Origin: Patescibacteria group bacterium
GTDB lineage: Bacteria; Patescibacteriota; Minisyncoccia; UBA6257; GWB1-50-10
Length of the DNA stretch: 64,000 nt
Reading direction: 5' to 3'
Assembly: GCA_038065455.1 (NCBI GenBank)
Contig: JBBTQX010000008.1
Coordinates: 1 to 64,000, forward strand
Made by a program: the position numbers and the translations under genes. Position 1 is the first letter of the stretch. Every line of letters begins with the position of its first letter. Shown in pieces: positions 5,626 through 61,693 of the stretch. The notes under the pieces were generated by a model. The model did not search any database. It was not told where the DNA came from and was given only the letters and a program-made list of their open reading frames with translations.

Positions 5626-6849
5626 ATGACTTGGCCAATAAAAAAATTAGGGGAAATTGCGGAAGTGGTTATGGGACAATCACCACCATCTTCCAGCTAC
5701 AACGAGCAAGGTATTGGTTTGCCATTTTTTCAAGGCAAGGCGGAATTTGGAGAAATTTATCCTATCCCAGTTAAATATTGCTCATCTCCAAATCGAATCG
5801 CGGAAGCGAACGATATTTTGATATCGGTTCGTGCTCCCGTAGGAAATATCAATATTACAAAAGAAAAATCTTGTGTTGGTCGCGGTTTGGGAGCTCTCCG
5901 CGCAAAGGAGGACATTTTAAATCAAATGTTCCTATTCTATTTCATGAAAAAGAATGAAAATAATTGGTCTAGACTTTCAACTGGAAGCACATTCTCTGCA
6001 ATCAAAGGAAGTAGTTTAAGAAATTTTGAAATCCCGGTTCCTCCTCTTGCAATCCAAACCCAAATTGTTGAGCGGTTGGATAAAATCGCCAAGGCGCAGA
6101 AATTGAATGATGGGCTTATCCAGAAAACTGACGAGCTTTTTCAATCGCTTTTGCATAAGGAATTAAACCCCGTTAGAGATAGCAAACACTCTAACGGGGT
6201 AAATCCGGCCGGCCCCGCCGACGCTTCCGCCTTCGTTAAAACTTCGGCGGATAAAAAAGCTATGGCGGGCAAGAAGAATTGGGAGATTAAAAAATTGGGA
6301 GATATTATCAAACCACAGTATGGATACACTACATCGGCAAAAGACTCAGGAAATTATAGGTTTATAAGAATTACCGACATTGGTGATGAGGGCGAATTAA
6401 GAGATTCTGATAAAAAATATGTGGCCATTAGCCAAGACGAAGCAAAAAGCTATCAATTACGAAACGGTGATCTGCTACTGGCACGGACTGGCGCAACGTT
6501 CGGCAAGATTCTCTATTTCGAAGAAGGCGAACCGGCAATTTTTGCATCGTTTTTGATTCGCTTAAACCCTGATACTTCAATTGATCCATTTTACATTTGG
6601 TTATTTTCTCGATCCCAGGACTATTGGCAACAAGCTAGATCGCTGATGACCGGCTCAGGGCAACCACAATTTAACGCAAATAGGCTAAAGCAGATTAAAA
6701 TTCCTCTTCCACCCCTCGAAATTCAAAAGCAAATCGTCGCCAAACTTTCCGCGATTCAGAATTACAAAAAACAGCTTCTTGGACAAAAAGCAAAACTCAA
6801 AGAGCTTTTTGACTCGGCTTTGGCGAAATCAATGTCGAAAGATGCCTAA
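5626..6849 (+). CDS. hsdS: Type I R-M specificity subunit
   Basis: Two TRDs each starting W-x-x-KKLG and ending PxPPLxxQxxIV; linker extended by palindromic inserts. Confidence 0.95.
   Translation: MTWPIKKLGEIAEVVMGQSPPSSSYNEQGIGLPFFQGKAEFGEIYPIPVKYCSSPNRIAEANDILISVRAPVGNINITKEKSCVGRGLGALRAKEDILNQMFLFYFMKKNENNWSRLSTGSTFSAIKGSSLRNFEIPVPPLAIQTQIVERLDKIAKAQKLNDGLIQKTDELFQSLLHKELNPVRDSKHSNGVNPAGPADASAFVKTSADKKAMAGKKNWEIKKLGDIIKPQYGYTTSAKDSGNYRFIRITDIGDEGELRDSDKKYVAISQDEAKSYQLRNGDLLLARTGATFGKILYFEEGEPAIFASFLIRLNPDTSIDPFYIWLFSRSQDYWQQARSLMTGSGQPQFNANRLKQIKIPLPPLEIQKQIVAKLSAIQNYKKQLLGQKAKLKELFDSALAKSMSKDA
6168..6199. repeat. In-frame palindromic insert, CCCGTTAGAG family, flanked by TAAA direct repeat
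   Basis: CCCCGTTAGAG-N10-CTCTAACGGGG; 32+4=36 nt. Confidence 0.85.
6214..6270. repeat. Nested REP-like palindromes in frame in hsdS linker
   Basis: Outer CCCGCC...GGCGGGC with inner TCCGCC...GGCGGA; 57 nt, PADASAFVKTSADKKAMAG. Confidence 0.75.
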
Positions 6850-18819: not shown

Positions 18820-18954
18820 TTTACCAGGCAGTGAAAATGCGACCGCGATTCAAAATTGAATCGATGATTTTGAAAAGCATCCAGTTGTATTTCTAAAATT
18901 GATGTTTTTGTCATTAATAACATTAATTGGCCGCATTTCTACTGCCCGGTGAAT
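18819..18954. repeat. 136-bp element with 26-bp imperfect terminal inverted repeats (MITE-like or structured leader)
   Basis: ATTTACCAGGCAGTGAAAATGCGACC versus GGCCGCATTTCTACTGCCCGGTGAAT, 21/26 complementary. Confidence 0.6.
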
Positions 18955-21934: not shown

Positions 21935-22084
21935 TGATTGATTATGGATAAAAATAAAAACGACCTTTATATATGTAATAGATTATATCATACCCGGTAT
22001 TACAATACTAAAAATTGTATGTAAATCGTCTTTATTTCTTTTTGTAGTACCTGGCATATCCGCCCTTCTGTTATAATTTATAGG

Positions 22085-27011: not shown

Positions 27012-28385
27012 ATGCCTGAAAGAAAATCTGTAAAAAAATCTTCGGAATTGAAGCTCCCGCCGCAGGATTTGGAATCCGAACGCTCCGTTTTGGGCGCGCT
27101 CCTTTTGGACAAGAACGCGGTAATCCAAGTCGCCGACTCCATCGCACCTTCGGATTTCTACGAAACGAAAAATCAGCGGGTCTACGAAGCCGTTCTGGAA
27201 CTCTTCAGTAAAGGGGAACCGATTGATATTCTGACGGTCTCCCATATTCTCAAGGAAAAGAAAGAACTCGCTTCGATCGGCGGCGTGGAATACCTGACGG
27301 AACTTGTTTCGTCTACGCCGACCTCGGCCCACGTGAGCCACTATGCCAATATTGTAAAGGAACAGCGGGTGCGCCGCGACCTCATCCAGGCCGCCTTTGA
27401 AATAAATGAAAGGACCTTCGACGAGAGGAATTTCGAAGACCTTCTCGAATCCGTCGAGCAAAAAATATTCAGCATCTCCCAGCGCTCGCGTCCGCAAAAA
27501 TTCGTCCAATTGAAAGACGAATTGCCCGCCGCCTATGAGCGCCTGGAGAAACTTCATCAGGGCGAGAAGGGCACGCTCCGCGGCGTCGCCACCCAATTCA
27601 CCGAATTGGACAATATGCTCTCCGGGCTCCAACCCTCCGACCTTATTATCTTGGGCGCCCGGCCTTCTTACGGAAAAACCTCGCTTGTATTGGATATTGC
27701 GAGGCAGGCCGCCACGGTTAGCAAAAAATCCGTGGCAATATTCTCGATTGAAATGTCCCGCGAACAGATAATCGATCGGCTCATTTCCGGCCAGGCCCAG
27801 ATTCCCCTCTGGCGGCTTCGAACCGGCCGATTGAACGACGAAATGGAATTCTCGCTGGTCCAGCAGGCTCTCGATGAACTCTCCAAATCGAGGATTTTCA
27901 TCGATGACACCGCTTCCCCTACCCTCCTTCAAATGCGCTCCATGGCTCGCCGACTCCAAATCGAGCATGGCATCGACCTTATTATCATCGACTATCTCCA
28001 ACTCATTCAGCCGAGAACTTCTTCCGACAATATCGTTCAGCAGGTAACCGAAATTTCCCGGGGACTGAAAGCGCTCGCCCGAGAATTGAATGTTCCCGTT
28101 CTCGCCGTCTCCCAGCTTTCGCGCGACGTCGAAAAACGGGAGGTGAAAATTCCCCGCCTCTCCGACTTGCGGGAATCCGGCAGTTTGGAACAGGACGCCG
28201 ATGTTGTGCTCCTTATATATCGCAAAGACCGCGACCGCTTGGACACTCCCGAAAGCGACAAAAATATCACCGAGATAATTATCGCCAAGCACCGGAACGG
28301 CCCGGTCGGAAGCATAAAACTTATGTTCGACCCGGAAAAAGTCGGATTCAAAAATCTCGACAACCGGCATTCCATCGAGCAATGA
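27012..28385 (+). CDS. dnaB: Replicative DNA helicase
   Basis: GARPSYGKT, IDYLQL, SQLSR, DLRESGSLEQDAD, KHRNGP. Confidence 0.98.
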   Translation: MPERKSVKKSSELKLPPQDLESERSVLGALLLDKNAVIQVADSIAPSDFYETKNQRVYEAVLELFSKGEPIDILTVSHILKEKKELASIGGVEYLTELVSSTPTSAHVSHYANIVKEQRVRRDLIQAAFEINERTFDERNFEDLLESVEQKIFSISQRSRPQKFVQLKDELPAAYERLEKLHQGEKGTLRGVATQFTELDNMLSGLQPSDLIILGARPSYGKTSLVLDIARQAATVSKKSVAIFSIEMSREQIIDRLISGQAQIPLWRLRTGRLNDEMEFSLVQQALDELSKSRIFIDDTASPTLLQMRSMARRLQIEHGIDLIIIDYLQLIQPRTSSDNIVQQVTEISRGLKALARELNVPVLAVSQLSRDVEKREVKIPRLSDLRESGSLEQDADVVLLIYRKDRDRLDTPESDKNITEIIIAKHRNGPVGSIKLMFDPEKVGFKNLDNRHSIEQ

Positions 28386-28666
28386 TCCCGTTAGAGACAT
28401 TTCTATGTATTACAATTACGTTTTAAGAAGCAAAAAAGATGGGAAATGGTATACTGGCTACACGAATGATCTACGGAAGCGCTTTAGCCAGCACAATAGC
28501 GATAAATTCCCTCAATGGACCAAAAATCGGGGTCCTTTTGAAATCATATACTATGAAGCCTGCAAAGATCTGCAAGATGCAAGGTCGAGGGAATATTATC
28601 TAAAAACAGGAATGGGTAAACGTTATATCAAAAATAGGTTAAAGCGCTTCCTGTCTCTAACGGGAT
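28385..28666 (+). mobile_element. Minimal putative mobile element: GIY-YIG gene between 15-bp perfect inverted repeats
   Basis: ATCCCGTTAGAGACA (28385-28399) / TGTCTCTAACGGGAT (28652-28666); ATGAT directly repeated at both ends. Confidence 0.75.
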
Positions 28667-28668
28667 GA
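28405..28668 (+). CDS. Small GIY-YIG nuclease
   Basis: YNYVL...WYTGYT.DL..R...HN, YYEA, A..RE..LK. Confidence 0.92.
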   Translation: MYYNYVLRSKKDGKWYTGYTNDLRKRFSQHNSDKFPQWTKNRGPFEIIYYEACKDLQDARSREYYLKTGMGKRYIKNRLKRFLSLTG

Positions 28669-29261
28669 TTCCGAAACCGATAAAGAAATTCATCGATGCC
28701 TTTTCCCAACTGCCCGCTCTGGGGCCGCGCCAGGCCACCCGGCTTGCTTTCTATCTCACTTCCCTTCCCAAAGCGACGCTCCACGAATTGGAAATGTCGC
28801 TTAAGGGACTGAAGGATTTGGGCCGATGTGAACGGTGCTTTTTTCTCAAAGAGAATGAATTAAAAGTTTGTCGGATTTGCGGCGACCCCAAGCGGGATAA
28901 GGAAATAATCGCGATTATCGAGAAAGAAACGGATCTGCTTTCGCTCGAAAAGCTCGGCGCCTATACCGGCCACTACTTCATTTTGGGAAAACTGGCCGAA
29001 AAGGGCGTGCTCGAGATCGCCCAAAAACTAAGACTGGAACATTTGAAATCACGGATAAAAAGCGAGGGTGGTATCATAAAAGAGTTGATTATCGCCCTTA
29101 ATCCCAGTGCCATCGGGGATTTCACCGCCGATATGATAAAGCGGGAATTCAGAGAATTAGCCGGTAAGATTACCCGCTTGAGCCGCGGACTCCCGACCGG
29201 CGGAGAGATAGAGTTCGCCGACGAAAGTACGCTCGAAAGCTCGTTTGAGCATAGAGAATAA
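28665..29261 (+). CDS. recR: Recombination mediator RecR
   Basis: LPALGPRQATRLAF, C4 Zn finger, Toprim, GLPTGGEIEFAD. Confidence 0.93.
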   Translation: MIPKPIKKFIDAFSQLPALGPRQATRLAFYLTSLPKATLHELEMSLKGLKDLGRCERCFFLKENELKVCRICGDPKRDKEIIAIIEKETDLLSLEKLGAYTGHYFILGKLAEKGVLEIAQKLRLEHLKSRIKSEGGIIKELIIALNPSAIGDFTADMIKREFRELAGKITRLSRGLPTGGEIEFADESTLESSFEHRE

Positions 29262-60473: not shown

Positions 60474-60505
60474 CGCAGAAAATTATCTCTCATCTTCATT
60501 TATTA

Positions 60506-61618
60506 TGCATAAGGCCACATACATATTGCACTCGGTGAAGCCAGCGCTTCACCATGAAAATCCATTGTAAATATGCCGGCATCAAGGGGAGTATGACTGT
60601 CTATCGGGACGCGCTACGCTACCGGTATATGATCCGACCCCAAGCGTTGCGGAAGGCAAAAATCCTCGCCTTCGCTGAAAAGCACGGCACCTTGACTGCG
60701 CTCGAGGCCTTTGAGGTGAAGCGGCGCACGTTCTTTGACTGGAAAAAGAAGTGGGTAGCGGGCGGGAAGATTCCCGAGACACTCAACGGGAAATCACGGG
60801 CGCCGAGGACAAAACGGAAGCGCCGGTGGTCCGATGAGGTGATTGCCGAGATCAAGCGGCAGCGCTGGGAGCATCCCAATCTCGGCAAGGATAAACTGCA
60901 TCCGCTTCTTGCCGAATTCTGCGCCGAGAAGAAGCTGGCTTGCCCTCAGTCAAAGACCATCGGACGGTTGATCGCGGATCTGGGCGGATTGCGGATGCAC
61001 CCCAAAAAGATCTCGCACTTCGGAAAAATCAAGATCGCCAACCGTCAAAAAGTGTTGAGAAAACCTATGGATTTCAAGGCCGAGTATCCTGGCCACTGCG
61101 TGGCCCTGGACACCATTGAGAAGCACGTTGGGGGCAGACGCTATTACGTGATCACGTTTGAAGACCTGTTTACACGATTTTGCTTCGCCTGGGAAACGAC
61201 CTCGCACGCATCGCTTGCGGCAAAAGAGTTTTTTACGCTTTGCCTTAAGGTTTTTCCGTTCCCGATTTCTTTTGTCCTTACGGACAACGGCAGCGAGTTC
61301 ATGAAACACTTTGACGCAGAGCTCCGCCGGCTCCACCTCGTCCATTATCATACTTATCCGAAGACGCCAAAGATGAATGTGCACATGGAGCGGTTCAATC
61401 GCACCGTCCAAGACGAGTTTGTGGATTATCACACAGCTGATCTGCAAACGCCGGATGCGTTCAACCGCAAGCTCGTGGACTATCTCGTCTGGTACAATAC
61501 GAAGCGTGTGCACTATGCTTTCAAAAACAAATTATCACCCGTGCAGTTCATGCTACAATTACCACAACTAGCAGTCGCAAAAATGCCCACCGAGTGCAAA
61601 AGTGGGTGGCCTCATACA
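60506..61618 (+). mobile_element. IS481-like insertion sequence
   Basis: ~31-bp imperfect TIRs (TGCATAAGGCCAC...TTGCACTCGGTG / CACCGAGTGCAA...GTGGCCTCATACA), 5-bp TSD TATTA. Confidence 0.85.
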
Positions 61619-61693
61619 TATTATAGCAAAATGACCAAATTTATGGTAAAATTAAAGTATGGAGAAATATTTTTGGGATACGAATCCCGATAA
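60554..61693 (+). CDS. IS481-like DDE transposase (rve integrase core)
   Basis: VALDT, LTDNGSEF, ERFNRT, YNTKRVH; reads through the right TIR. Confidence 0.9.
   Translation: MKIHCKYAGIKGSMTVYRDALRYRYMIRPQALRKAKILAFAEKHGTLTALEAFEVKRRTFFDWKKKWVAGGKIPETLNGKSRAPRTKRKRRWSDEVIAEIKRQRWEHPNLGKDKLHPLLAEFCAEKKLACPQSKTIGRLIADLGGLRMHPKKISHFGKIKIANRQKVLRKPMDFKAEYPGHCVALDTIEKHVGGRRYYVITFEDLFTRFCFAWETTSHASLAAKEFFTLCLKVFPFPISFVLTDNGSEFMKHFDAELRRLHLVHYHTYPKTPKMNVHMERFNRTVQDEFVDYHTADLQTPDAFNRKLVDYLVWYNTKRVHYAFKNKLSPVQFMLQLPQLAVAKMPTECKSGWPHTYYSKMTKFMVKLKYGEIFLGYESR

What the first reader, a model, noticed from the sequence alone, without database searches (positions are those of the whole stretch)
28382..28669. 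Candidate new mobile element: lone GIY-YIG nuclease inside terminal inverted repeats, with non-autonomous in-frame derivatives
Seen: an 87-aa GIY-YIG gene is the only cargo between perfect 15-bp inverted repeats (ATCCCGTTAGAGACA / TGTCTCTAACGGGAT). ATGAT is repeated at both ends. Removing the element and one copy restores a normal dnaB-stop/recR-start ATGA overlap. The right repeat encodes the protein's last residues (SLTG). The same CCCGTTAGAG...CTCTAACGGG ends bound two short elements elsewhere in the window (6168-6199 in hsdS, 43684-43757 in a pilin), each with a 4-nt direct repeat. Known: MITEs are usually moved by DDE transposases and REP/REPINs by HUH (RAYT) enzymes; GIY-YIG proteins are known as homing or repair nucleases. 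Inference: an autonomous/non-autonomous pair in which a GIY-YIG nickase spreads palindromic elements.
Basis: partly seen in the sequence, partly recalled or inferred. Interest (0 to 1): 0.88.

Follow-up and report, generated by a model that had tools for sequence, protein, structure and literature searches.

The report
Tiny GIY-YIG nuclease transposon-like element
A 280-base unit that holds only an 87-residue GIY-YIG nuclease gene between inverted repeats looks like a very small mobile element that lands on start codons and has left many gene-less copies, so it may be a new way for DNA to move in bacteria.

Summary
Window 28382-28669 holds an 87-aa GIY-YIG gene between perfect 15-bp inverted repeats with ATGAT on both sides.

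- **Copies:** the genome has a second copy differing by 1 nt, and 19 further pairs with the same ends, 30-139 bp long.
- **Empty sites:** four were found in congeners: dnaB-recR, the second copy, an rpoB-rpoC-like junction and the pilin.
- **Relatives:** 66 of 78 close homologues from many phyla are bounded by the same repeat. Arm changes are compensatory.
- **Co-variation:** distant homologues carry other repeats, and repeat similarity tracks protein similarity.
- **Insertion site:** insertions sit at (A)TGAA, mostly start codons, in one orientation. The flank supplies the nuclease gene's stop codon and often its start.
- **Other transposases:** the genome's Y1 and DDE transposases have different ends. 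Several repeat-rich relatives lack both.

The closest published system is Ssn/NTS, a single-domain GIY-YIG ssDNA nuclease flanked by hairpin repeats (PMC11893778). That paper noted the IS-like layout. Target duplications, empty sites and start-codon targeting are new here. The nuclease's role in movement is inferred, not shown.

The parts
28382..28386 (+). Left direct repeat ATGAT. It contains the dnaB stop codon TGA.
   Evidence: The same five bases recur at 28665-28669.
28385..28399 (+). Left inverted-repeat arm ATCCCGTTAGAGACA.
   Evidence: Core positions CCCGTTAGAGNN pair in 67-69 of 69 distinct related units.
28405..28668 (+). 87-aa single-domain GIY-YIG nuclease gene, the only ORF between the arms.
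   Evidence: Pfam PF01541 at E 5.4e-16. Y5, Y16, G18, R26, H30, R62 and E63 are invariant in 26 homologues. AF2 model pLDDT 89.7. Nearest structures are UPF0213 BH0048, then Slx1.
28652..28666 (+). Right inverted-repeat arm TGTCTCTAACGGGAT. It encodes the C-terminal SLTG.
28665..28669 (+). Right direct repeat ATGAT. It supplies the GIY-YIG stop (TGA) and the recR start (ATG).
   Evidence: The same arrangement holds in 54 of 69 related units.
27012..28385 (+). dnaB, the upstream host gene.
   Evidence: Pfam DnaB_C at E 2.3e-96. It abuts recR directly in three congeners and one other genus.
28665..29261 (+). recR, the downstream host gene.
   Evidence: Pfam RecR domains.
6164..6203 (+). 32-base mini element CCCCGTTAGAG...CTCTAACGGGG (6168-6199) with TAAA on each side. 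It lies in frame in the linker of an HsdS-like ORF.
   Evidence: The ssDNA hairpin has z -8.2. No congener DNA match, so no empty site was seen.
43680..43761 (+). 74-base mini element TCCCGTTAGAG...CTCTAACGGGA (43684-43757) with TGAA on each side. It adds 26 residues, in frame, to the prepilin leader on the minus strand.
   Evidence: The congener orthologue lacks it and has a normal ...KQG|FTLVEL leader.
18823..18950 (.). Member of a second repeat family, ACCAGGCAGTGAAAAT...ATTTCTACTGCCCGGT. This family has its own GIY-YIG gene elsewhere in the genome.

Best explanation
This is an autonomous member of a family of very small transposon-like elements. Each is about 280 bp and carries one UPF0213/Slx1-like GIY-YIG nuclease of about 86 aa, bounded by 12-16-bp inverted repeats (T/C)CCCGTTAGAG...CTCTAACGGG(A/G). 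Gene-less derivatives of 30-139 bp keep only the ends.

Shown here:
- The unit of duplication runs exactly from arm to arm.
- Insertions are absent from orthologous sites in congeners.
- Most are flanked by a 3-5-nt direct repeat.
- The target is (A)TGAA or TAAA, usually a start codon or an ATGA stop/start overlap.
- Orientation relative to the target is fixed.
- The nuclease ORF has no stop inside the element and uses the T(G/A)A of the right flank, which overlaps the host gene's ATG.
- In about a quarter of units the left flank's ATG starts the ORF (MNPVR...).
- Seven of the 14 roughly 120-bp derivatives carry a 39-46-codon ORF from the left ATG to a TAA four bases before the host ATG. Host translation could therefore continue by termination-reinitiation.

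Inferred:
- In single-stranded DNA the two arms pair into a stem.
- The nuclease recognises that stem, as the published Ssn enzymes recognise their hairpins and as Slx1 recognises branch points.
- It cuts at the stem's base, in or beside T(G/A)AA.
- Host ligation or repair joins the piece into another T(G/A)AA site. A non-palindromic 4-nt overhang would explain both the duplication and the fixed orientation.
- The derivatives are moved in trans.
For: **Unit boundaries.** Two copies in the genome are 278 bp and differ by 1 nt. Similarity ends 4-5 bases outside the arms.

**Copy number.** There are 21 convergent pairs in 654 kb: 13 with AGAG/CTCT on both arms, 7 with AGAA/TTCT on both, and 1 mismatched. 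Two roughly 120-bp copies are 100% identical over 135 bp.

**Empty sites.**
- dnaB-recR is uninterrupted in G004, G003, G001 and G005.
- The second GIY-YIG copy is absent in G004, G003 and G002.
- The derivative between a 1066-aa and a 1207-aa ORF is precisely absent in G004: GGTTATTCATTTTG against GGTTATTCAT[...]ATTCATTCTT.
- The pilin insert is absent in G004.

**Architecture in relatives.**
- 66 of 78 evaluated close homologues (64-78% identical; Patescibacteria, Omnitrophota, Planctomycetota, Nitrospirota and others by record title) have an arm score of 12 or more right at the ORF borders.
- 20 of 30 homologues in 60 relatives do too, against 3 of 240 mismatched pairs and 0 of 26 displaced windows.

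**Compensatory change.** In 69 distinct units, positions 0-11 pair in 67-69 of 69. Position 11 is C-G in 32, T-A in 31 and A-T in 5. Position 10 has four pair types.

**Protein and repeat co-vary.** Spearman 0.75, with 0 of 5000 permutations as high. For the 9 distant loci alone it is 0.66, with 1 of 5000. A second family in the same genome has its own GIY-YIG gene and 17 gene-less pairs.

**Direct repeats.** 32 of 69 units have identical 4-mers. Among the 43 whose left 4-mer is not TGAA, 6 are identical against 0.6 expected, with 0 of 10000 shuffles as high.

**Target and coding layout.**
- All 16 long elements in the genome are followed at once by ATG, and 14 of those ATGs open 156-1207 codons.
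- In the 69 units the stop lies at +2..+4 in 54. The right flank begins with a start codon in 47, of which 38 open at least 100 codons, against 24% of random ATGs.
- The logo shows (A)TGAA and nothing beyond it.
- Tandem arrays share the TGAA.

**No other mobiliser fits.**
- The genome's IS481-like DDE element and its two Y1 genes have unrelated ends.
- No TnpB or DDE_Tnp_1 was found.
- 6 of the 11 relatives with 8 or more repeat hits have no Y1_Tnp. G027, G038, G001 and G002 also have no rve.

**Fold.** The nearest structures are UPF0213 and then Slx1, a branch-specific nuclease. ssDNA stems have z -4 to -8. Published Ssn enzymes of the same size cut ssDNA beside their flanking hairpins (PMC11893778, sections read).
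Against: - No activity of this protein is known. It has no DNA-binding domain, and a hydrolytic nuclease cannot join DNA by itself.
- 10 of 30 homologues in relatives, and 2 of the small GIY-YIG genes in this genome (C7:26543, C8:92151), show no flanking repeat.
- 3 of the 11 repeat-rich relatives lack a close homologue of 58% identity or more. G003 has one at 54% with a stop, G014 has 48% plus a fragment, and G055 has 53%.
- Direct repeats are imperfect or absent in 37 of 69 units, and their length reads as 3, 4 or 5 nt depending on where the ends are set.
- The second family shows no clear duplication, and its one complete gene copy (a second is cut by a contig end) is frameshifted at an A-run.
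- Part of the start-codon pattern could come from selection on where insertions are tolerated rather than from enzyme specificity.
- The published SRM hairpin motif of Ssn is not present: 0 hits in the window and 1 in the genome.
Confidence: 0.6

Rival explanations
1. This is a domesticated Ssn-type system. The GIY-YIG protein is a host ssDNA nuclease, for example one limiting incoming transforming DNA. The repeats are its recognition sites, and their spread is old or incidental rather than driven by the nuclease.
For: Chenal et al. 2025 (PMC11893778; sections 5 part 1, 10 and 12 read) show this role for Neisseria SsnA and propose domestication of an IS-like NTS-ssnA-NTS unit. The protein here has the same size and is also single-domain. 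The genome also has repeat-free small GIY-YIG genes.
Against: - Near-identical copies point to recent movement: 1 nt in 278, and 100% over 135 bp.
- Four sites are empty in congeners.
- Homologues 64-78% identical occur in records titled as very distant phyla.
- Several gene copies occur per genome, up to 11 matches and 3 gene-sized pairs in one Omnitrophota-labelled genome.
- The ORF depends on flank-supplied stop and start codons.

All of this fits a selfish, horizontally moving unit better than a host gene.
Confidence: 0.17
2. The repeats are REP/REPIN-like or MITE-like elements moved in trans by another transposase (a Y1/RAYT-like enzyme, a DDE enzyme or an unrecognised one). The GIY-YIG gene is only cargo.
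For: The genome encodes two 236-aa Y1_Tnp proteins and two copies of an IS481-like DDE element.
Against: - Each Y1 gene is bracketed by its own, different hairpins, and the IS has its own 30-bp ends. No family-1 or family-2 end lies within 400 bp of the Y1 genes.
- 6 of 11 repeat-rich relatives have no Y1_Tnp hit. G027, G038, G001 and G002 also lack rve.
- The cargo is always the same gene, across phyla and across unrelated repeat families, and the repeats co-vary with it.
Confidence: 0.1
3. This is a free-standing homing endonuclease gene that spreads by double-strand-break repair between alleles. The inverted repeats serve as RNA or terminator structures rather than transposon ends.
For: GIY-YIG is a classic homing-endonuclease fold. 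I-TevI's catalytic domain is among the structural matches.
Against: - There is no DNA-binding domain in the 87 aa.
- Copies lie at many unrelated loci, with short direct repeats.
- Gene-less units share only the ends.
- Homing copies a gene into the same locus of another allele and does not produce this pattern.
- No T-run follows the stems (sequences).
Confidence: 0.05

Closest known systems
Ssn nucleases with NTS/SRM hairpin repeats (Chenal et al. 2025, Nat Commun, PMC11893778; sections 5 part 1, 10 and 12 and keyword passages read; supplements not seen)
   Same: - A single-domain GIY-YIG protein of about 90 aa.
- The gene is bracketed by palindromic repeats that are dispersed in many copies.
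- Protein and repeat pairs diverge together.
- The authors remark that the layout equals an insertion sequence.
- Their enzymes cut ssDNA next to the hairpin, which is the mechanism I borrow.
   Different: - There, each flank is a complete short hairpin with an oriented 5' extension. Here the two flanks are the two arms of one inverted repeat, with the gene in the loop.
- The published SRM pattern is absent here.
- The nearest named and solved relatives here are UPF0213 proteins (YazA 44%, BH0048). Assignment to cd10448 could not be tested.
- In the sections I read, the paper reports no target duplications, empty sites, start-codon targeting or gene-less derivatives with ORFs. It favours domestication.
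REP/REPIN elements with RAYT (Y1 HUH) transposases, and IS200/IS605 (listings and abstracts seen; mechanism recalled)
   Same: A small enzyme gene is bracketed by palindromes that also occur as many gene-less copies. The likely substrate is a hairpin in ssDNA.
   Different: - The enzyme class differs: a hydrolytic GIY-YIG nuclease, not a covalent HUH tyrosine enzyme.
- IS200/IS605 make no target duplication (recalled).
- The Y1 genes of this genome have other hairpins.
MITEs of DDE transposons. Also Correia elements of Neisseria and Rickettsia palindromic elements (these two recalled, not looked up).
   Same: Terminal inverted repeats, short target duplications, many short non-coding copies, and some in-frame copies inside protein genes (as in Rickettsia).
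   Different: The matching autonomous element encodes no DDE enzyme. The whole autonomous unit is only about 280 bp. Insertions are aimed at start codons in one orientation.
UPF0213 proteins (B. subtilis YazA, B. halodurans BH0048, E. coli YhbQ) and Slx1
   Same: - Best sequence matches: 1zg2 at E 6.9e-12 and yazA at 44%.
- Best structural matches: 1zg2, then Slx1 at TM 0.57-0.63.
- The GIY-YIG catalytic residues are conserved.
   Different: yazA sits in a housekeeping operon without flanking repeats in the record inspected. Slx1 has an extra RING domain and a partner, Slx4 (entry titles).
GIY-YIG homing endonucleases (I-TevI, Seg proteins) and the endonuclease domain of Penelope-like retroelements (recalled)
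   Same: A GIY-YIG nuclease serving a selfish element.
   Different: Those have a separate DNA-binding domain or a reverse transcriptase, and they move by homing or reverse transcription. Neither partner is present here.

Membership tests
Ssn family (Chenal et al. 2025) | Single-domain GIY-YIG protein of about 90-100 aa with intact catalytic residues | tested here: met
   87 aa, with PF01541 covering residues 1-69. Y5, Y16, R26, H30 and E63 are invariant. The model is one compact domain plus a C-terminal helix.
Ssn family (Chenal et al. 2025) | Gene flanked on both sides by repeats that are multi-copy in the genome | tested here: met
   The flanks are two arms of one inverted repeat, not two separate hairpins.
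Ssn family (Chenal et al. 2025) | Flanking repeats fit the published SRM pattern HGTCWY...RNCYNB | tested here: not met
   A regular-expression scan gave 0 hits in the window and 1 in the 654-kb genome, and none near the gene.
Ssn family (Chenal et al. 2025) | Assignment to CDD cd10448 (GIY-YIG_unchar_3) | not testable with these tools
   No CDD search is on hand. The nearest named relatives are UPF0213-type.
Ssn family (Chenal et al. 2025) | Site-specific cleavage of ssDNA only, next to the hairpin | not testable with these tools
   Needs purified protein.
Transposon with non-autonomous MITE derivatives | Terminal inverted repeats shared by gene-bearing and gene-less copies | tested here: met
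Transposon with non-autonomous MITE derivatives | Target-site duplication | tested here: met
   32 of 69 units have identical 4-mers. Non-TGAA sites give 6 of 43 against 0.6 expected. The empty site of a congener shows one copy. The duplication is imperfect or absent in 37 of 69.
Transposon with non-autonomous MITE derivatives | Empty orthologous sites | tested here: met
   Four sites.
Transposon with non-autonomous MITE derivatives | Encodes a transposase of a known class (DDE, HUH, serine, tyrosine, DEDD) | tested here: not met
   The only ORF is GIY-YIG.
REP/REPIN-RAYT | The repeats flank a Y1 (HUH) transposase gene and occur with it | tested here: not met
   The Y1 genes have other hairpins. 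6 of 11 repeat-rich relatives have no Y1_Tnp.
GIY-YIG homing endonuclease | Nuclease domain joined to a DNA-binding domain, occupying one cognate site | tested here: not met
   87 aa with no second domain. Many unrelated sites are occupied.
UPF0213 (YazA/YhbQ/BH0048) | Sequence and fold similarity to solved and named members | tested here: met
   1zg2 at E 6.9e-12, 1ywl at E 1.2e-4. yazA 44% over 76% of the query. Top Foldseek hit is 1zg2.

The most novel reading that the evidence does not exclude
This would be the smallest autonomous DNA transposon yet seen, at about 280 bp, and the first prokaryotic transposon class driven by a GIY-YIG nuclease. The enzyme would recognise the stem formed by the element's own ends in single-stranded DNA and cut at T(G/A)AA, leaving non-palindromic 4-nt ends that host enzymes ligate into another T(G/A)AA site. 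The element carries neither start nor stop codon of its own. It lands on a host start codon, uses the host's initiation signals for its nuclease, and hands the ribosome back through an ATGA overlap. That would explain how it sits in front of essential genes in 0.6-Mb genomes and crosses phyla.
Probability: 0.45. Interest if true: 0.92.

Novelty: new variant of a known kind. Interest (0 to 1): 0.8.

Why it matters
**Movement of the repeats.** Ssn-type GIY-YIG nucleases were described in 2025 as hairpin-specific ssDNA cutters whose IS-like layout was left unexplained. This locus and its relatives give that layout the marks of real transposition: exact unit boundaries, target duplications, empty sites, gene-less derivatives and spread across phyla. 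Whether, and how, a hydrolytic GIY-YIG nuclease moves DNA becomes directly testable with a 40-base substrate and an 87-residue protein.

**A new transposon class.** If confirmed, it adds a transposase class and the smallest autonomous element known to me.

**Annotation and genome biology.** It explains many short repeats, odd leader ORFs and in-frame inserts in the tiny genomes of Patescibacteria. It also shows a way for a parasite to sit on start codons of core genes without silencing them.

**Tools.** The family would offer a large set of matched nuclease and hairpin pairs for ssDNA work.

Tried and rejected
- **Rfam:** no family matches 28300-28760 at E up to 1.
- **NCBIfam:** only a sub-threshold match to group I intron endonuclease, 20 bits against a cut-off of 56.
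- **hsdS site:** no DNA match in the four congeners, so no empty site could be shown there.
- **Sequencing runs:** only assembled contigs were served.
  - Laying X9, X11, X12 and X13 gave no joint that skips the element.
  - One DNA contig spans 27900-28967 with the element in place.
  - In X11, contigs break at the repeat borders, and one loose end carries the flank of the other copy.
  - One contig from an RNA library covers 28595-28862, across the right arm into recR. That is at most a weak hint of co-transcription.
  - Contigs cannot show rare variants, so none of this counts against mobility.
- **Derivation of the 120-bp units from the gene-bearing unit:** beyond the arms only the 3' subterminal AGCGC(A/T)TCC is shared, and the 5' inside is unrelated. 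This supports derivation only weakly.
- **Second family:** I looked for a target duplication and found none that is consistent.
- **Extended target specificity or a Shine-Dalgarno motif in left flanks:** none beyond (A)TGAA. An SD-like 4-mer occurs in 14 of 86.
- **S. meliloti homologue:** it is flanked by its own hairpin but does not fit the SRM regular expression as I wrote it. This did not help place the protein relative to Ssn.
- **Dimer prediction:** not run, because the reading does not rest on it.
- **Literature:** searches found no paper in the held library describing a prokaryotic GIY-YIG element with terminal repeats and target duplications. Subscription journals and the Ssn paper's supplements were not seen.
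Full report
**What is at the coordinates**

dnaB (27012-28385; Pfam DnaB_C at E 2.3e-96) and recR (28665-29261) are separated by 283 bases. Their layout is as follows.
- ATGAT at 28382-28386. It contains the dnaB stop codon.
- ATCCCGTTAGAGACA at 28385-28399.
- An 87-codon ORF at 28405-28668.
- TGTCTCTAACGGGAT at 28652-28666, the perfect reverse complement of the left arm.
- ATGAT again at 28665-28669.

The ORF is a GIY-YIG domain (PF01541, E 5.4e-16). Its last four residues, SLTG, are encoded by the right arm. Its TGA overlaps the recR ATG.
- 6168-6199 has TAAA on each side. It adds 36 bases in frame to a 407-aa HsdS-like ORF.
- 43684-43757 has TGAA on each side. It adds 78 bases in frame to a prepilin leader on the minus strand.

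**More than chance**

The exact 10-mer CCCGTTAGAG occurs 29 times in the 654-kb genome, against once for the reversed control. With one mismatch allowed, single hits are not enriched (55 against 72). They do, however, form 21 convergent pairs 30-278 bp long.
- 13 pairs have AGAG/CTCT on both arms.
- 7 pairs have AGAA/TTCT on both arms.
- 1 pair is mismatched.

Three further copies have a decayed left end. By size the 21 pairs split as follows.
- 2 carry the GIY-YIG gene.
- 14 are 109-139 bp.
- 5 are 30-72 bp.

The second gene-bearing copy (contig 2, 35627-35904) differs from the window's copy by 1 nt in 278. A genome self-comparison shows that the similarity stops 4-5 bases outside the arms. 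Two of the roughly 120-bp copies are 100% identical over 135 bp.

**Empty sites**

- **dnaB-recR.** In three congeners dnaB abuts recR directly. G003 has ...ACATGATTCCC, G001 has ...GAATGATCCCT and G004 has ...CAATAATAATGATTCCG. The same holds in G005, from another genus. G002 gave no RecR match.
- **Second gene-bearing copy.** It is missing from the orthologous place in G004, G003 and G002.
- **Junction of two large ORFs.** The roughly 120-bp copy between a 1066-aa and a 1207-aa ORF is precisely absent in G004. I read these as rpoB and rpoC but did not test that. G004 has GGTTATTCATTTTG where this genome has GGTTATTCAT-element-ATTCATTCTT.
- **Pilin.** The G004 pilin has a normal leader, MKILNKKYFNKQG|FTLVEL. 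Here the leader reads ...NSGF-IPLEIARPAGPFGARASARARSLTGF-TLVEL.
- **hsdS.** No match was found in congeners for this region, so that site stays open.

**The architecture is general**

The protein has homologues in 48 of 61 related genomes, with up to 11 matches in one genome. Of 30 loci fetched, 20 have an inverted repeat scoring 12 or more right at the ORF borders. The left arm ends 1-9 nt before the start, and the right arm lies at or just after the stop. Controls gave 3 of 240 for left and right flanks taken from different loci, and 0 of 26 for displaced windows.

A scan of one genome per species found at least 533 relatives. The best 80 are 64-78% identical. By record title they come from many Patescibacteria lineages and also from Omnitrophota, Planctomycetota, Nitrospirota, Desulfobacteraceae, Elusimicrobiota and an archaeal (Woesearchaeota) bin. 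Bin labels may be wrong. Of the 78 I could evaluate, 66 carry the CCCGTTAGAG-type arms at the ORF borders. In most of the other 12 the left arm is visible but the ORF is broken.

Five of those genomes were searched. All held a gene-sized pair, and four also held pairs of 42-118 bp. One Omnitrophota-labelled genome has three gene-sized pairs.

**Covariation**

In 69 distinct units the twelve core positions pair in 67-69 of 69 cases, with many double changes.
- Position 11 is C-G in 32, T-A in 31 and A-T in 5.
- Position 10 has four pair types.
- Positions 4-6 change together (TTA to ACG).
- The base just outside the core is T-A in 45 and C-G in 17.

More distant homologues (40-55% identical) carry quite different arms, such as CCCAGTACAATTACACCGAT, ACCCTCCCAACTTTTGAAA and GCCCCCACACCAATT. 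Protein identity and arm similarity correlate across 20 loci: Spearman 0.75, with 0 of 5000 permutations as high. For the 9 distant loci alone it is 0.66, with 1 of 5000. Related loci are not independent, so these figures are descriptive.

The same genome holds a second family with the ends ACCAGG(C/T)AGTGAAAAT and ACCAGG(C/T)AGTAGAAAT.
- It has 17 gene-less pairs of 63-150 bp, one of them in the window at 18823-18950.
- It has its own GIY-YIG gene of 314 bp, frameshifted at an A-run.
- A second gene copy is cut by a contig end.

**Target, orientation and coding layout**

With the element set as (T/C)CCCG...CGGG(A/G), the flanking 4-mers are identical in 32 of 69 units, and 26 of those are TGAA. 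Among the 43 whose left 4-mer is not TGAA, 6 are identical, against 0.6 expected. None of 10000 shuffles reached 6. Examples are TGAT, TAAA, TGTA and TGAC. Several more share 3 nt in a shifted register, as at dnaB-recR. The logo of 86 sites shows (A)TGAA and nothing further.

Elements ending C...G go with TAAA, as in the hsdS copy.

All 16 long elements of this genome have the same orientation relative to the target and are followed at once by ATG. Fourteen of those ATGs open 156-1207 codons. The other two open 38 and 43.

In the 69 units:
- the nuclease ORF never stops inside the core;
- its stop is the T(G/A)A or TAG at +2..+4 in 54;
- the right flank begins with a start codon in 47, and 38 of those open at least 100 codons, against 24% of random ATGs;
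- the ATG of the left flank is in frame with the nuclease in 18, giving ATGAATCCCGTTAGAG = MNPVR...

Among 14 close loci from relatives, 7 have that in-frame flank ATG and 11 have the ATGA overlap with a host ORF.

Seven of the 14 roughly 120-bp copies carry an ORF of 39-46 codons from the left ATG to the TAA inside the right arm, four bases before the host ATG. Tandem arrays sharing one TGAA occur in L050, L052, L100 and L114. That fits a target which each insertion regenerates.

**Other possible mobilisers**

- The only large repeat in the genome is an IS481-like element: 1114 bp in two identical copies, one at window 60505-61618. Its transposase is rve-type by my reading of the motifs. Its ends are about 30 bp and unrelated.
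- Two 236-aa Y1_Tnp genes exist. Each is bracketed by its own hairpin, and no family-1 or family-2 end lies within 400 bp.
- No TnpB-type or DDE_Tnp_1 hit was found.
- Eleven of the 61 genomes have 8 or more exact 10-mer hits. Of these, 8 have a homologue at least 58% identical. The exceptions are G003, G014 and G055.
- Six of the eleven have no Y1_Tnp hit. G027, G038, G001 and G002 also lack rve.
- None of the 25 genomes without a 10-mer hit has a close homologue. That is partly by construction, since the gene carries two hits.

**The protein**

Y5, Y16, G18, R26, H30, R62 and E63 are invariant in 26 homologues. The AlphaFold model has mean pLDDT 89.7. It is a three-stranded sheet with helices, followed by a long basic C-terminal helix.
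- Sequence matches in the PDB are the UPF0213 proteins BH0048 (E 6.9e-12) and EF2693.
- Foldseek ranks BH0048 first, then Slx1, then the I-TevI catalytic domain and the UvrC N-terminal domain.
- The best named relative in the plasmid collection is B. subtilis yazA, at 44%.

As single-stranded DNA the units fold with the arms paired, with z-scores from -4.0 to -8.2.

**What is known**

Chenal et al. 2025 (PMC11893778; I read sections 5 part 1, 10 and 12 and keyword passages, not the supplements) describe the Ssn family.
- Members are single-domain GIY-YIG proteins of about 94 aa, assigned to cd10448.
- They bind a hairpin repeat (NTS, generalised as SRM) and cut ssDNA beside it. They do not cut duplex DNA or RNA.
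- 42% of homologues have such repeats on both sides.
- The authors say the NTS-ssnA-NTS layout equals an insertion sequence, compare it with REP/RAYT, and propose domestication.

So the link between a lone GIY-YIG nuclease and dispersed palindromes is published. The locus here differs in three ways.
- The flanks are the two arms of one inverted repeat.
- The SRM pattern is absent.
- The nearest named relatives are UPF0213-type.

Membership of cd10448 could not be tested. I found no report of target duplications, empty sites, start-codon targeting, flank-supplied stop and start codons, or ORF-bearing derivatives. That covers the sections I read and eight literature searches.

**Reading**

I put about 0.9 on this being a family of DNA units that has moved recently within and between genomes. 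I put about 0.6 on the encoded nuclease making the cuts that move it.

The proposed mechanism is inference:
- stem recognition in ssDNA;
- cuts at T(G/A)AA;
- non-palindromic 4-nt ends ligated by host enzymes;
- derivatives moved in trans.

It is built from the duplications, the fixed orientation, the fold and the published Ssn activity.

Against it:
- there are no activity data;
- some homologues lack repeats (10 of 30);
- three repeat-rich genomes lack a close homologue;
- duplications are imperfect in 37 of 69 units;
- the second family has no clear duplication and a frameshifted gene.

Part of the start-codon pattern may reflect where insertions are tolerated in very compact genomes.

**Verdict**

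This is a real and well-supported feature. It is a new variant of the recently described GIY-YIG nuclease and hairpin-repeat systems, and it now carries the sequence marks of transposition. Interest 0.8.

Noticed in passing
window 60505-61618 (second copy at contig 8, 81221-82334, outside the window): A 1114-bp exact duplicate holding a 379-aa transposase-like ORF (60554-61693) with DDE/rve-type motifs. The imperfect ends of about 30 bp are ATGCATAAGGCCAC... and ...GTGGCCTCATACA. It looks like an IS481-type insertion sequence.
   Followed up: partly
window 18823-18950: A 128-bp member of a second inverted-repeat family (ACCAGGCAGTGAAAAT / ACCGGGCAGTAGAAAT ends). The genome has 17 such gene-less pairs plus a 314-bp unit with its own, frameshifted, GIY-YIG gene at contig 2, 77643-77956. 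No clear target duplication. The ends often lie 5-9 nt from a start codon.
   Followed up: partly
window 21993-22054; also contig 2, 35540-35605: A third small inverted-repeat family (CCCGGTATTACAA...) of about 62-66 bp, flanked by TATA. The contig-2 copy is absent from the congener G004. The ends resemble the arms around distant GIY-YIG homologues in other genomes.
   Followed up: partly
window 6204-6270: Directly after the mini element, the HsdS-like ORF has a G+C-rich stretch encoding NPAGPADASAFVKTSADKKAMAG, with a small hairpin. It looks like another in-frame insert but has no second copy in this genome.
   Followed up: partly
contig 3, 12877-13119 and contig 10, 7617-7847 (outside the window): Two 236-aa Y1_Tnp (IS200/RAYT-like) genes, each bracketed by its own hairpin repeat (GCGATGTCAGACGTTGC; TACGAGGTTAAACCTCGTA). 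Copy numbers are low, at 2-5.
   Followed up: partly
contig 8, 92151-92357 (outside the window): Another small GIY-YIG gene without flanking inverted repeats lies just upstream of a tRNA-like sequence. An 11-nt direct repeat (CGGATAGGACG) lies before the gene and inside that sequence, as if the gene had inserted next to or into a tRNA gene.
   Followed up: no
contig 4, 18656-18721 (outside the window): A third in-frame mini element of the CCCGTTAGA family, inside a 759-aa ORF. It encodes ...HPVRNSPPQGPEGARRAGEISNG...
   Followed up: partly
L100 and G065:C143:5262-5661: In a bin labelled Woesearchaeota archaeon, a gene-bearing unit is followed directly by a 118-bp gene-less unit that shares the TGAA. 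Either the element reached an archaeon or the contig is mis-binned.
   Followed up: no
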